Positions 1,352 to 3,728 of a DNA stretch of 7,527 nucleotides are shown one piece after another. This stretch comes from a virus. Lineage: Duplodnaviria > Heunggongvirae > Uroviricota > Caudoviricetes. The position numbers were made by a program, and so were the translations under genes. The stretch lies in the IMG/VR virus record IMGVR_UViG_2609460218_000012; one strand, written 5' to 3'. The stretch's first letter is position 1, and each line of letters opens with the position of its first letter. Under the pieces are notes generated by a model. The model did no database searches, was not told the DNA's origin, and saw only the letters and a program-made list of their open reading frames with translations.

Positions 1352-2653
1352 TTAAATCCGAAGTGATGTGACTCTTCCGGTCGGTTTGACAATAGGGAAT
1401 TGCTTAACGATGAAATAACCTCCGGCATCATTCGGGTGATCATTGCCAGATTTTTTATCAGGCTCCCCCTTCTCATCCCAGACCTGTTGCTCCAGAGATT
1501 CGGCATATAACGGGCAACGCTTCACATTAACTTTATAGCGACGCTCACCATTGGCATTGCAGAACATTGCATTCATTGAGTTAACGCGATCTTTTACTGG
1601 CGGGTTCGAGCTGTTCACCACAACGTTAAAACCAGCCTGCTTAAGCTGGGCTATATCCGTCGTACTTGCGTTACTTGATTTTCTGGAATCCCCGGAAGCA
1701 TCTGGATAAATATAAATTTCCCTCACTTTCCGGTAATCATTCCCATCATACAGCCAGAAGCGTTCTTTAATGATGCGGATCATATCCGGCGTATCGTAGG
1801 CATTGATGATTTCAGTTACCGCACATGGAAGCCCCAAACGCAGCACATGGACGATTCCCGCCATCTTTCCAACGTTAAAATCCATCCCAATATAAATCGG
1901 CTCCCCTGGCTGCTCCACTTCTTCGCAATTATTCAGTTTCCGGTCAAACTGATGGTAAACAGTACCACTTGTCAGGTTAGTAAACTGTCCTCGAAGATAG
2001 GCTTTAATCAGCTCTGGAGGGTATGATTCAAGAAGCGAAGGAATGTAATCTGCTGGCAGGTTCTTTTCATTATCGAAAGTAGATGCCTGCACCAGACCAT
2101 ACAGTGAGGCCAGCTCTGTTTTTTCACGCACGGCTTTAACAAACTGCTCGTAGACAAATTTGAATCCTTCCGGCGTGGTTGTAACGTCAATACCGTTGCG
2201 AAGTCCATCAATCTTATAACGCATACGTGCAATTATCTTGCGCCACGCCGTTCTGGCTTTTTCCTTCGGCAAAATGTCCAGTTCATCCACCAACGCATTA
2301 CCAATTTTGAAACCGACGATCGTTTGTGGCTTCTCCATCGATCTGCAGATAGTGGTTCCCCGATACTGGCGTCCGTAATAAAAGTGAACCTCTTTATTTC
2401 CCTCATTAATTTTTACGTTCAATCCCCAGTCAGCAGCAACTTCTTCCACTGTAGGGTAAAAAATATCGCGAATTTGGGGATACGTTGGCGCAAAATATCC
2501 CTGATTTATACCTGGATGCTCCCAAATCCCCTTGCATATGCCGCCACACCCAACCCATGTTTTGCCCGAGCCAAAACCAGCAATATAGGCTTTAAATTTA
2601 TGGGGCATTGAAAGAAATCGCGCCTGAGGCACATTAAGCGTCGGAGAGATCAT
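1352..2653 (-). CDS. Phage terminase large subunit (TerL)
   Basis: 433 to 436 aa ORF. Walker A P-loop AGFGSGKT near the N-terminus, Walker B-like LVDELD, and a C-terminal acidic-residue region (IYIGMDFNVG.., IYPDASGD) consistent with the RNaseH-like nuclease domain. Start chosen at ATG 2653 (MISPTLNV), 8 nt after an AAGGAG Shine-Dalgarno; alternative in-frame starts at 2659 (ATG) and 2662 (GTG). Overlaps terS 3' end by 20 nt. Confidence 0.9.
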   Translation of the reverse strand: MISPTLNVPQARFLSMPHKFKAYIAGFGSGKTWVGCGGICKGIWEHPGINQGYFAPTYPQIRDIFYPTVEEVAADWGLNVKINEGNKEVHFYYGRQYRGTTICRSMEKPQTIVGFKIGNALVDELDILPKEKARTAWRKIIARMRYKIDGLRNGIDVTTTPEGFKFVYEQFVKAVREKTELASLYGLVQASTFDNEKNLPADYIPSLLESYPPELIKAYLRGQFTNLTSGTVYHQFDRKLNNCEEVEQPGEPIYIGMDFNVGKMAGIVHVLRLGLPCAVTEIINAYDTPDMIRIIKERFWLYDGNDYRKVREIYIYPDASGDSRKSSNASTTDIAQLKQAGFNVVVNSSNPPVKDRVNSMNAMFCNANGERRYKVNVKRCPLYAESLEQQVWDEKGEPDKKSGNDHPNDAGGYFIVKQFPIVKPTGRVTSLRI

Positions 2654-3728
2654 CTTCATCACTCCTTACTCTGGCATCAACCACATTAATATTGATCGCC
2701 ACAGGCTGGGGATGTTCATTATCTTCCACCGTTTCGATCTCTTTGCGCAGCTTCTGGTTTTCCATTCTGCGCCGTTCAATTTCCAGTTCCTGTAGCCGTT
2801 TATCTGCACATAAAGCCCCGCCAGCAGAAAACAAACGCAACAATTCACGCCGGGCGGCAGCCTTATCCTCCAGCAGGATCTCAACGCCGAATTTTCCGAA
2901 TTTTGCCCCTGCATATAATTGCCGCGCATCCCCATCAAGCAGAGTGGTATCAGCCATATAAAGCTGTCCCGTTCCCTCACCGCAGCACTTCGGGCAGTCC
3001 GGATTGGGTATGGCGTTATCAACAAAGCCGAGGCCTCCATATTCCGGTTCGGGTTTGCCATCTCTGGAAGCCTGCGCCGCTGCCTTGTCGAATTCTGCTA
3101 TATCGCGCCACTGGTAGAGATGATTCTCGCCCCAGCAATAACGGCAGTTAACACGGCGAAATTGTGCAAGCTGATTGGGGTCGGCCAGGACAATAGCCAT
3201 CAACTGACTCACTAGTAAATCCAGGTCTGCGGTATAGCGTTTCTGGTACTGATTGCGGAAGTAGCTGATAGCGCGAAAAACCCTGGCATTTCTAAGCATA
3301 CGACTGGCGTTGCTGTTAGCTGTCGCACCTTGCCCCTCATAACCGGCTAGTCGGTACGCCTCTGTCGGCTTTTTACCCTGAGCAACAAGCATCGCAAACT
3401 TAGCCTGCTGGTCAGAAATGCCGAATTCATCGGGACAGAACGAAAATTCCTCCGCGTCGCCCTCATTCANGCCCGCATCGAATACTGGCTTTTTTTCCTG
3501 AGATTTTTCGTTCCGCTTTTGTGCAGTCTGCGCAGATTTTTTCTGCGCACTTTTTTGCGCAGTTTTGCACATTTCTGTCTGCGCATTTTTCGGAGTTTTT
3601 TTGATGTAACGACGGGCTGTTGCGTAATTCAGTCCCCTTGCTTCACACCATGCCACCGGAGATATACCGGAGCGGGTGTATTCAGCAATATACTCCTGCT
3701 GCAACGCCCCCCAGTCCGGTCTGCTCAT
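2634..3728 (-). CDS. Phage terminase small subunit (TerS), long form with N-terminal HTH-like region, K/Q/A-rich linker, P27-family-like core, Cys-rich putative zinc ribbon and C-terminal coiled-coil/acidic tail
   Basis: 364 aa ORF directly upstream of and overlapping terL. The central segment (..QQAKFAMLVAQGKKPTEAYRLAGYEGQGATANSNASRMLRNARV..) resembles the conserved core of P27-family small terminases. Cys cluster CRYC..CPKCC at about aa 195 to 249. ATG at 3728 preceded by AGGA. One ambiguous base (3470) gives an X but no frameshift. Confidence 0.75.
   Translation of the reverse strand: MSRPDWGALQQEYIAEYTRSGISPVAWCEARGLNYATARRYIKKTPKNAQTEMCKTAQKSAQKKSAQTAQKRNEKSQEKKPVFDAGXNEGDAEEFSFCPDEFGISDQQAKFAMLVAQGKKPTEAYRLAGYEGQGATANSNASRMLRNARVFRAISYFRNQYQKRYTADLDLLVSQLMAIVLADPNQLAQFRRVNCRYCWGENHLYQWRDIAEFDKAAAQASRDGKPEPEYGGLGFVDNAIPNPDCPKCCGEGTGQLYMADTTLLDGDARQLYAGAKFGKFGVEILLEDKAAARRELLRLFSAGGALCADKRLQELEIERRRMENQKLRKEIETVEDNEHPQPVAININVVDARVRSDEDDLSDA
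3518..3576. repeat. Array of four to five copies of the palindromic hexamer TGCGCA, each followed by a T-run, inside the terS coding region
   Basis: Plus strand: cTGCGCAgattttttcTGCGCActtttttTGCGCAgttttGCACAtttctgtcTGCGCAttttt. TGCGCA starts at 3519, 3534, 3546 and 3570, with a degenerate TGCACA at 3556. Spacing 10 to 15 bp. Encodes the K/Q/A-rich linker (KTAQKSAQKKSAQTAQK) of TerS. Confidence 0.7.

What the first reader, a model, noticed from the sequence alone, without database searches (positions are those of the whole stretch)
2634..3728. Unusually long, multi-domain small terminase with a Cys-rich putative zinc ribbon
At 364 aa this is about twice the length of a typical TerS. It combines an N-terminal HTH-like region, a lysine-rich linker, a P27-family-like core, a Cys cluster (CRYC at aa 195 to 198, CPKCC at 245 to 249; roughly nt 2982 to 3146) and a coiled-coil/acidic C-terminus. 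Zinc-ribbon elements in small terminases are uncommon and could contribute to DNA recognition or oligomerisation.
Basis: partly seen in the sequence, partly recalled or inferred. Interest (0 to 1): 0.4.

Follow-up and report, generated by a model that had tools for sequence, protein, structure and literature searches.

The report
Small terminase with conserved four-cysteine insert
This is the DNA-recognition (small terminase) subunit of a common E. coli Rac-like prophage; it is twice the usual size because it has an extra DNA-binding head and a strongly conserved four-cysteine, probably metal-binding, domain that no solved structure resembles.

Summary
ORF 2634..3728 (minus strand) encodes a 364-aa, 40.9-kDa protein with Cys at 195/198 and 245/248/249, exactly as stated. 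It is a real small terminase, already annotated as such. It is 99.5% identical to TerS of induced E. coli phages, and the locus is in 728 of 5,426 complete E. coli genomes. It is not a fusion artefact.

Corrections: the core is Terminase_2 (SF6/SPP1 G1P type), not P27. C249 is not conserved. "Zinc ribbon" could not be confirmed as a fold.

New points:
- C195, C198, C245 and C248 (CxxCxG ... CxxCxGxG) are invariant in 108 full-length representatives of a clade of over 1,000 50%-identity clusters.
- The ~107-aa module holding them is the best-conserved part of the family.
- It sits where SF6 TerS has a 14-residue stretch at the tip of the oligomerisation hairpin.
- It folds at pLDDT 97 and has no neighbour in the PDB.
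- The C-terminal ~65 aa track the TerL type, while the Cys4 module does not.

Best reading: a metal-stapled structural cap on the TerS ring. DNA is read by the HTHs and TerL is docked by the tail. Metal binding is inferred, not shown. Moderate interest; a new variant of a known kind.

The parts
2634..3728 (-). Whole small-terminase (TerS) gene: 364 aa plus stop (stop codon 2634-2636)
   Evidence: ORF list. Terminase_2 and phrog_51 matches. 99.5% identical to annotated TerS in E. coli phages. RefSeq calls it 'terminase small subunit'.
3594..3728 (-). aa 1-45: extra N-terminal helix-turn-helix-like domain, present in only part of the family
   Evidence: AF2 helices 6-20, 24-31 and 35-38 at pLDDT 89-95. 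Weak IS66 TnpA HTH match at E 2.7e-4, below cutoff. phrog_370 and phrog_2606 TerS N-terminal matches. 33 of 108 representatives have an extension of 50 aa or more, and 11 of those carry this same HTH.
3420..3593 (-). aa 46-103: K/Q-rich basic linker (TAQK/SAQK-like repeats) followed by a short acidic spacer; low-confidence or disordered, and length-polymorphic
   Evidence: pLDDT 45-77, with aa 75-88 below 50. Composition. Indels and substitutions concentrate here among close relatives. Contains the N at 3470.
3288..3419 (-). aa 104-147: Terminase_2 (SF6 G1P-type) HTH DNA-binding domain
3186..3287 (-). aa 148-181: first long helix of the oligomerisation hairpin
   Evidence: AF2 helix 148-181, mostly pLDDT above 90 with a dip to about 72 at aa 161-170. 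Aligns to SF6 TerS up to residue 102.
2865..3185 (-). aa 182-288: conserved Cys4 alpha/beta module, inserted at the tip of the oligomerisation hairpin
3135..3146 (-). aa 195-198: first knuckle, CRYC (family motif C-R-x-C-x-G), directly after strand 188-193
   Evidence: C195, R196, C198 and G200 are invariant in 108 representatives. DSSP.
2985..2996 (-). aa 245-248: second knuckle, CPKC (family motif C-P-x-C-x-G-x-G), just before strand 253-258. C249 (nt 2982-2984) is not conserved.
   Evidence: C245, C248, G250 and G252 are invariant and P246 is over 90% conserved. Position 249 is N, C, F, G or Y.
2721..2864 (-). aa 289-336: second long helix (stalk or coiled-coil-like) of the oligomerisation core. 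From about aa 298 it belongs to the exchangeable C-terminal cassette.
   Evidence: AF2 helix 289-336. aa 278-315 align to SF6 117-154. Two alternative versions begin at about aa 298 in E. coli alleles.
2637..2720 (-). aa 337-364: flexible acidic tail with the PVAININVVDARVR peptide; inferred TerL-docking segment
   Evidence: Low pLDDT. The tail is identical in a Klebsiella phage TerS that is only 39-45% identical overall (39.5% by tblastn; 45% in alignment A1), and that phage's TerL is 85% identical. An alternative tail goes with an unrelated TerL.
1352..2653 (-). Large terminase (TerL) gene; overlaps the TerS 3' end by 20 nt
   Evidence: Terminase_6N E 3.7e-33 and Terminase_6C E 3.4e-10. Start position taken from the annotated homologue in L001.
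3732..3983 (-). Upstream 83-aa ORF (annotated as 69 aa in relatives) resembling the N-terminal HTH of a different small terminase. Its stop codon lies 3 nt before the TerS ATG.
   Evidence: phrog_309 'terminase small subunit', E 8.3e-23, partial. 35% identity, E 1e-12, to aa 11-81 of the 129-aa TerS of Pasteurella phage Pmp13.

Best explanation
The ORF is the functional small terminase (TerS) of a Rac-like lambdoid prophage of E. coli. It belongs to the Terminase_2 (SF6/SPP1 G1P) lineage and is enlarged by two additions.

(1) Shown by homology: an SF6-type HTH (aa 104-147) followed by two long helices (148-181 and 289-336). In solved relatives these helices build the ring-shaped oligomer.

(2) Shown: between the helices, where SF6 TerS has 14 unaligned residues at the beta-hairpin turn, this clade carries a module of about 107 aa. 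Its most conserved features are two knuckles, C-R-x-C-x-G and C-P-x-C-x-G-x-G. Inferred: the four invariant cysteines bind one structural metal ion, most likely Zn2+. The ion staples the long irregular loops of the module. [quoted passage not shown] It is probably not the sequence-reading element.

(3) Inferred: pac-DNA recognition is done by the Terminase_2 HTH. In this enterobacterial subgroup a second N-terminal HTH, tethered by a basic flexible K/Q-rich linker, assists it.

(4) Inferred from co-variation: the C-terminal ~65 aa, especially the tail PVAININVVDARVR, dock the cognate TerL. They are exchanged as a cassette together with TerL.
For: TerS identity:
- Pfam Terminase_2 and phrog_51 over the full length.
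- Family profile against SF6 TerS 3zqp, E 9e-17.
- Gene order: small ORF, TerS, TerL, portal, with overlapping stop and start.
- All 67 cultured-phage hits to the module lie in genes at the TerS position. Nearly all are annotated TerS; these include F116, Bcep22, BcepB1A and PEp14.

Cys4 site:
- C195, R196, C198, G200, C245, C248, G250 and G252 are invariant in 108 representatives.
- Before any filtering, 131/138, 131/136, 116/124 and 119/123 non-gap residues are Cys at the four positions. The exceptions are fragments or frameshifted sequences.
- The module holds 21 of the 24 most conserved columns.
- The module folds at pLDDT 97 even though aa 223-252 have no regular secondary structure.

Position in the fold:
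- The match to SF6 is split: profile 8-90 aligns to SF6 21-102 and profile 186-223 aligns to SF6 117-154.
- The review states that the inserted beta-hairpin of SF6 and P22 forms a cap at one channel end (PMC9611059).

Structural rather than specificity role:
- The module changes at only a few positions among the close E. coli relatives aligned, whereas the HTH (aa 121-150), the linker and the C-terminus occur as distinct alleles.
- It is net acidic on average (-1.9, and negative in 69% of sequences), against +2.7 for the HTH.
- It occurs unchanged with two unrelated TerL types.

Tail as TerL dock, a 2x2 co-variation:
- Window and Klebsiella TerS share the tail, and their TerL proteins are 85% identical.
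- P0059 and Yersinia TerS share the other tail, and their TerL proteins are 59% identical.
- The two TerL types are unrelated.
Against: - No metal binding, oligomer state, DNA binding or TerL binding was measured. All of these are inferred.
- No multimer model was made, so the 'cap' position rests on homology to SF6 only.
- A conserved basic cluster next to the first knuckle (R191/R192 in about 75% of representatives, R196 invariant) could contact DNA.
- The 108-sequence set was selected for having all four cysteines, although the unfiltered counts agree.
- The N-terminal HTH has no family match above any curated cutoff.
Confidence: 0.6

Rival explanations
1. The Cys4 module is a DNA-binding zinc finger or ribbon that takes part directly in pac-site recognition. 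It would act alone or together with the HTHs.
For: - CxxC...CPxC knuckle pairs are common in nucleic-acid-binding zinc ribbons (general knowledge).
- Conserved basic residues flank the first knuckle: R191 and R192 are R in about 75% of representatives and R196 is invariant.
- Herpesvirus TerS proteins use zinc fingers, and a DNA-binding role is discussed for pUL56 (PMC9611059).
Against: - The module is net acidic on average.
- It varies least among close relatives, while the HTH shows allelic variation of the kind expected of a specificity determinant.
- No zinc-ribbon or zinc-finger family matches at E<=10, and there is no structural neighbour.
- By homology it sits at the channel cap rather than on the outer HTH rim, where TerS-DNA contacts have been mapped.
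Confidence: 0.2
2. The 364-aa ORF is an artefact: two genes, an upstream HTH gene and a ~260-aa TerS, joined by a sequencing or assembly error. Alternatively the real TerS is the small 83-aa ORF upstream.
For: - About two thirds of family members lack the N-terminal ~100 aa and are about 250 aa long.
- The window has an ambiguous base inside the linker, at 3470.
- The 83-aa upstream ORF resembles the N-terminus of another phage's TerS.
Against: - The same 364-aa reading frame is found in a cluster of 1,423 sequences, in ten independently sequenced phages at 98.9% identity or more and in 728 complete E. coli genomes.
- Yersinia and Klebsiella phage orthologues at 39-47% identity keep the N-terminal HTH fused.
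- The N at 3470 reads Leu in database copies, with no frame change.
- The 83-aa ORF lacks any oligomerisation core. The 364-aa protein carries the Terminase_2 core, and its tail co-varies with TerL.
Confidence: 0.02
3. The four cysteines do not hold a structural zinc. They would form a redox-active or iron (rubredoxin-like) centre, or disulfides, which would make packaging sensitive to the cell's redox or metal state.
For: - The motifs CxxCxG...CPxCxG resemble rubredoxin knuckles as much as zinc-ribbon knuckles (general knowledge).
- Metal identity cannot be read from sequence.
Against: - No rubredoxin family hit at E<=10 and no fold match.
- The cytoplasmic location makes stable disulfides unlikely.
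- No known step of terminase function needs electron transfer (inference).
Confidence: 0.08
4. The Cys4 module is the docking site for TerL or the portal, rather than a ring cap.
For: - It is a well-folded, conserved, surface-rich domain of unknown partner.
- TerS must contact TerL.
Against: The same module, nearly identical in sequence, is paired with two unrelated TerL families and different portal families (DUF4055 against Phage_portal_3). The C-terminal cassette switches with TerL.
Confidence: 0.08

Closest known systems
SF6 / SPP1 G1P small terminase (Pfam Terminase_2, PF03592; PDB 3zqp/3zqq, 2cmp)
   Same: - The sequence profile matches at E 9e-17 across the HTH, the first core helix, the beta-strand and the second helix.
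- It has the same genomic position, upstream of TerL.
   Different: - SF6 G1P is much shorter (164-residue chain), against 364 aa here.
- SF6 has 14 residues (103-116) where this protein has about 95 (aa 183-277) containing the Cys4 site.
- No C-terminal beta-barrel is predicted here; a 48-residue helix takes its place.
- There is an additional N-terminal HTH plus a basic linker.
Other structurally solved phage TerS (Pam5 21di, NV1 7joq, PaP3 6w7t, E217 7uxe, phBC6A51 2ao9)
   Different: All are 107-157-residue chains without cysteine clusters or an inserted domain. The 2022 review gives 15-21 kDa as the protomer size range and mentions zinc fingers only for herpesvirus TerS.
Herpesvirus TerS (HSV-1 pUL28, HCMV pUL56) zinc fingers
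   Same: A terminase DNA-recognition subunit that contains cysteine-based zinc sites (PMC9611059).
   Different: According to that review it is an unrelated all-helical protein of about 85 kDa with no evolutionary relation to phage TerS. No similarity was detected here. This is an analogy only.
DnaJ cysteine-rich domain (CXXCXGXG repeats) and zinc-ribbon or rubredoxin knuckles
   Same: Motif level only. The second knuckle is an exact CxxCxGxG and the first is CxxCxG. Each CxxC abuts a beta-strand.
   Different: - One metal site instead of DnaJ's two.
- 42-74 residues (46 here) separate the knuckles.
- No Pfam match to DnaJ_CXXCXGXG or any zinc-ribbon family at E<=10.
- No PDB fold neighbour.

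Membership tests
Phage small terminase, Terminase_2 family (PF03592; SF6/SPP1 G1P type) | Significant match to the family profile above the curated cutoff | tested here: met
   PF03592 at 34.5 bits against a cutoff of 26.1, E 3.7e-8. Family profile against SF6 TerS, E 9e-17.
Phage small terminase, Terminase_2 family (PF03592; SF6/SPP1 G1P type) | N-terminal HTH DNA-binding domain with the G1P fold | tested here: met
   [not shown]
Phage small terminase, Terminase_2 family (PF03592; SF6/SPP1 G1P type) | Gene immediately upstream of a large terminase in a head-morphogenesis module | tested here: met
   TerL (Terminase_6N/6C) overlaps the 3' end, and the portal gene follows.
Phage small terminase, Terminase_2 family (PF03592; SF6/SPP1 G1P type) | Ring-shaped homo-oligomer (8-12 subunits) built from a helical hairpin | not testable with these tools
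   Two long helices are predicted, but no multimer prediction or experiment was possible.
Phage small terminase, Terminase_2 family (PF03592; SF6/SPP1 G1P type) | Binds pac DNA and stimulates or directs TerL | not testable with these tools
   Only indirect evidence: the C-terminal cassette co-varies with TerL type.
   The Pfam scan at E<=0.1 on the whole protein and at E<=10 on four fragments returned only Terminase_2.
Zinc ribbon (two CxxC knuckles on beta-hairpins binding one Zn) | Four conserved Cys in two CxxC knuckles | tested here: met
   C195, C198, C245 and C248 are invariant in 108 representatives.
Zinc ribbon (two CxxC knuckles on beta-hairpins binding one Zn) | Recognisable zinc-ribbon fold or profile | tested here: not met
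   [not shown]
Zinc ribbon (two CxxC knuckles on beta-hairpins binding one Zn) | Bound zinc ion | not testable with these tools
   Needs metal analysis.
DnaJ cysteine-rich (CR) domain, PF00684 | Match to the DnaJ_CXXCXGXG profile, with four CXXCXGXG repeats forming two Zn centres | tested here: not met
   No Pfam hit at E<=10. Only two repeats are present, and the first lacks the final G.

The most novel reading that the evidence does not exclude
The ~107-aa Cys4 module is a previously undescribed, metal-dependent protein fold. It would define a very large clade of proteobacterial-phage small terminases (over 1,000 clusters at 50% identity, including F116, Bcep22 and Rac-like prophages) and build a new kind of crown on the TerS ring. 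These would then be the first metal-dependent small terminases of tailed phages. Phage DNA packaging might then be sensitive to zinc availability, and the module might contribute to DNA handling at the channel mouth.
Probability: 0.4. Interest if true: 0.55.

Novelty: new variant of a known kind. Interest (0 to 1): 0.4.

Why it matters
How small terminases recognise DNA is still unclear. The 2022 review read here calls the mechanisms of TerS DNA binding elusive and controversial, and all solved examples are small proteins of 15-21 kDa.

This clade is abundant: it is in 728 of 5,426 complete E. coli genomes and in many Burkholderia, Pseudomonas, Klebsiella, Erwinia and Yersinia phages, including F116. 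It adds a highly conserved, confidently folded domain with no solved relative at the tip of the oligomerisation core.

If the domain binds zinc, it would be the first metal site in a tailed-phage TerS. It would also be a good structural target.

The clean modularity seen here offers natural chimeras for testing which part of TerS does what. The HTH alleles, the near-constant Cys4 module and the TerL-matched C-terminal cassette are exchanged independently.

For annotation, the motif C-R-x-C-x-G ... C-P-x-C-x-G-x-G is a sharp signature for this TerS clade.

Tried and rejected
- P27/Terminase_4 core: rejected, since only Terminase_2 matches.
- DnaJ-CR, zinc-ribbon or rubredoxin membership of the module: no Pfam hit even at E<=10.
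- Module outside terminases: a profile search with the module alone returned 82 proteins. Most carry PF03592 or are short or partial sequences. About 27 have no precomputed Pfam domain, including a few 200-217-aa proteins, and one is labelled 'nudix hydrolase' by its source. No recurrent other context was seen. The search appears to have listed only proteins of 230 aa or less, so it is weak evidence.
- Direct PDB sequence search with the single protein: only a marginal Pam5 TerS hit, E 0.23. The family profile was needed.
- Literature searches for small terminase or TerS with zinc, zinc finger, zinc ribbon, CXXC or zinc-binding: nothing describes a Cys or Zn site in a tailed-phage TerS. The library covers open-access papers only.
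- Sequencing-fusion artefact: rejected.
- The first homologue search was saturated by relatives above 78% identity and was useless for conservation. The 50%-cluster representative search gave the needed diversity.
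Full report
**1. What is in the sequence**

The window carries a minus-strand ORF from 3728 down to 2634. It starts with ATG and encodes 364 aa. One ambiguous base, at 3470, gives X87. Identical database copies read Leu there with no change of frame.

Cysteines lie at residues 28, 54, 98, 195, 198, 245, 248, 249 and 307.

The calculated mass is 40.9 kDa. A 2022 review gives 15-21 kDa for structurally studied phage TerS protomers (PMC9611059), so 'about twice the usual size' is correct.

The K/Q-rich linker is real: aa 43-82 has 12 K+R and 6 Q, pI 10.2. The acidic C-terminus is real too.

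**2. Where it comes from, and whether the ORF is real**

The window is part of a Rac-like lambdoid prophage of E. coli. The gene order is trkG, ParB-like, TAGT glycosyltransferase, small ORF, TerS, TerL, portal.
- The protein is 99.2-99.5% identical to the annotated 'terminase small subunit' of nine induced E. coli phages, and 98.9% identical to a Salmonella phage protein.
- A single 90%-identity cluster of 364-aa proteins has 1,423 members.
- At least 80% of the window is present in 728 of 5,426 complete E. coli genomes, where RefSeq also calls the gene a small terminase.
- Orthologues with the same architecture occur in Yersinia (343 aa) and Klebsiella (334 aa) phages at 39-47% identity.

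The 'fusion by sequencing error' alternative is therefore excluded.

**3. Family**

The only Pfam match is Terminase_2 (PF03592, 34.5 bits against a cutoff of 26.1). There is no P27/Terminase_4 match. PHROG phrog_51 'terminase small subunit' matches over the full length at E 1.9e-75.

A profile built from 108 diverse relatives matches several solved small terminases:
- Bacillus phage SF6 (3zqp), E 9e-17
- Pam5, E 6e-13
- NV1, E 2.6e-3
- PaP3, E 4.8e-3

**4. Anatomy**

From the model and the alignments:

| Residues | Element |
|---|---|
| 1-45 | Extra three-helix HTH-like domain; weak IS66-TnpA-type HTH similarity, E 2.7e-4, below cutoff |
| 46-103 | Basic K/Q-rich linker, then an acidic spacer; largely low confidence |
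| 104-147 | SF6-type HTH |
| 148-181 | Long helix |
| 182-288 | Alpha/beta module carrying the cysteines |
| 289-336 | 48-residue helix |
| 337-364 | Flexible acidic tail |

Within the module the order of elements is:
- strand 188-193
- CRYC
- helix 210-222
- a long loop
- CPKC
- strand 253-258
- short helix 267-271
- hairpin 272-278 / 281-286

The match to SF6 is split. Profile positions 8-90 align to SF6 residues 21-102, and profile positions 186-223 align to SF6 117-154. In this protein those correspond to aa up to about 182 and from about 278. So about 95 residues stand where SF6 has 14 unaligned residues, at the turn of the oligomerisation hairpin.

The review notes that the beta-hairpin inserted there in SF6 and P22 forms a cap at one end of the ring channel. 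By homology, the Cys4 module is an elaboration of that cap. This placement is inferred, because no multimer model could be made.

**5. Are the cysteines conserved?**

Yes. A search of 1.84 billion 50%-identity representatives found 1,253 proteins at E<=1e-10.

Among the best 150, before any filtering, the non-gap residues that are Cys number:

| Position | Cys / non-gap residues |
|---|---|
| 195 | 131 / 138 |
| 198 | 131 / 136 |
| 245 | 116 / 124 |
| 248 | 119 / 123 |

The exceptions are fragments, or sequences whose similarity ends before the site.

In 108 full-length representatives (26-52% identity to this protein) the invariant columns are C195, R196, C198, G200, C245, C248, G250 and G252. 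This gives the signature C-R-x-C-x-G ... C-P-x-C-x-G-x-G, with 42-74 residues between the knuckles. C249 is not conserved.

The module holds 21 of the 24 columns that are at least 90% conserved in the family. It also has the lowest entropy of all segments.

About two thirds of the family are roughly 250 aa long and lack the N-terminal extension. 33 of 108 have an extension of 50 aa or more. These extensions are of several different HTH types, each followed by a basic low-complexity linker.

In cultured phages, all 67 hits to the module lie in genes at the TerS position, nearly all annotated TerS. They include Pseudomonas F116, Burkholderia Bcep22, BcepIL02, BcepB1A and DC1, Erwinia PEp14, Serratia Parlo and Klebsiella SopranoGao.

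**6. What kind of domain is it?**

Modelled alone, from a 66-sequence alignment, the module folds at pLDDT 97.3. Despite that:
- Foldseek finds nothing below E 1 in 350,542 chains.
- Pfam finds nothing at E<=10.

The motifs look like DnaJ-CR, zinc-ribbon or rubredoxin knuckles, but membership of those families was tested and not met. 'Zinc ribbon' is therefore a fair description of the ligand motif, not an established fold assignment.

Metal binding is inferred from four invariant cysteines in two CxxC knuckles that flank a long irregular loop. It was not measured, and I could not access coordinates to check geometry.

Literature searches of the open-access library found zinc sites described only for herpesvirus TerS.

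**7. What the module probably does**

Three comparisons bear on this.

(a) Among E. coli alleles that are over 90% identical, variation concentrates in the linker, in the Terminase_2 HTH (two alleles of aa 121-150) and in the C-terminal ~65 aa (two unrelated versions). The Cys4 module changes at only a few positions.

(b) The C-terminal cassette follows the TerL type:

| TerS | Tail | TerL |
|---|---|---|
| Window TerS and Klebsiella phage TerS (39-45% identical overall) | Both PVAININVVDARVR | 85% identical to each other |
| E. coli allele P0059 and Yersinia phage TerS | Both I(I/V)VHN(S/A)LP(M/I)PG | 59% identical to each other |

The two TerL types are unrelated. So the tail is the likely TerL-docking element, and the Cys4 module works with either TerL.

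(c) Across 108 representatives the module is on average net negative (-1.9, negative in 69% of sequences), while the HTH is net positive (+2.7).

Together these favour a structural or oligomerisation role, that is, a metal-stapled cap. They argue against sequence-specific DNA reading and against TerL docking. The conserved R191/R192/R196 cluster leaves room for some DNA contact.

**8. Verdict**

- The gene itself is ordinary and already annotated.
- What is not described, as far as these tools and this library can tell, is the conserved Cys4 insertion domain that defines this large TerS clade and has no solved structural relative.
- It is a new variant of a known kind, of moderate interest, mainly as a structural and mechanistic target.
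- Confidence: TerS identity about 0.95; metal-binding Cys4 site about 0.8; structural-cap role about 0.5.

Noticed in passing
window 3732-3983 (-): An 83-aa ORF (annotated as 69 aa in relatives) ends 3 nt before the TerS start codon. It is homologous to the N-terminal HTH part (aa 11-81) of the 129-aa small terminase of Pasteurella phage Pmp13 (35% identity, E 1e-12) and to phrog_309 'terminase small subunit'. So a second, truncated TerS-like DNA-binding protein sits next to the real TerS. It is either a remnant of a terminase-module exchange or an accessory factor. It is conserved in the related loci L001, L006 and L007.
   Followed up: partly
window 2637-2840 (-) (TerS aa ~298-364); L006 3501-4592 and 4582-5910: E. 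coli TerS alleles that are nearly identical up to about aa 297 carry one of two unrelated C-terminal cassettes. Each is paired with a different, unrelated TerL and a different portal family (DUF4055 against Phage_portal_3). This points to a recombination joint inside terS that swaps the TerL-docking end together with the downstream genes.
   Followed up: yes
window 3279-3368 (-) (TerS aa 121-150): Two distinct alleles of the Terminase_2 HTH region (KPTEAYRLAGYEGQGATANSNASRMLRNARVF against KLVEAYRLAGYESEGNAAYVTASQLLRNPKVY) occur among otherwise over 90% identical TerS proteins. They may reflect different pac specificities.
   Followed up: no
window 3919-4872 (-) and 4844-5635 (-): A TET-associated glycosyltransferase (TAGT, PF20691, E 8e-35; phrog_842 'beta-glucosyl-HMC-alpha-glucosyltransferase') and a ParB_N-domain protein (phrog_620) overlap each other. 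They lie directly upstream of the packaging genes here and in related E. coli loci. A ParB-like nuclease also precedes the terminase genes in Pasteurella phage Pmp13. This may be a DNA-modification or packaging-associated module.
   Followed up: no
window 5963-7251 (-): trkG, the Rac-prophage potassium transporter gene, has markedly lower GC (0.35-0.40 against 0.45-0.52 for the phage genes). It appears split into several ORFs only because of ambiguous bases (N at 6019, 7024-7025, 7081, 7104).
   Followed up: no
window 7289-7465 (-): A 58-aa ORF resembles the C-terminal end of an IS3-family transposase. The best genome matches to the window stop at about 7259 and list IS3/IS2 transposases there. 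This suggests an insertion-sequence junction at the trkG end.
   Followed up: no
window 164-1349 (-): The portal gene (DUF4055, phrog_145) appears split into two ORFs (164-1264 and 1158-1349), probably because of the ambiguous base at 1193. It also runs off the window at its 3' end.
   Followed up: no
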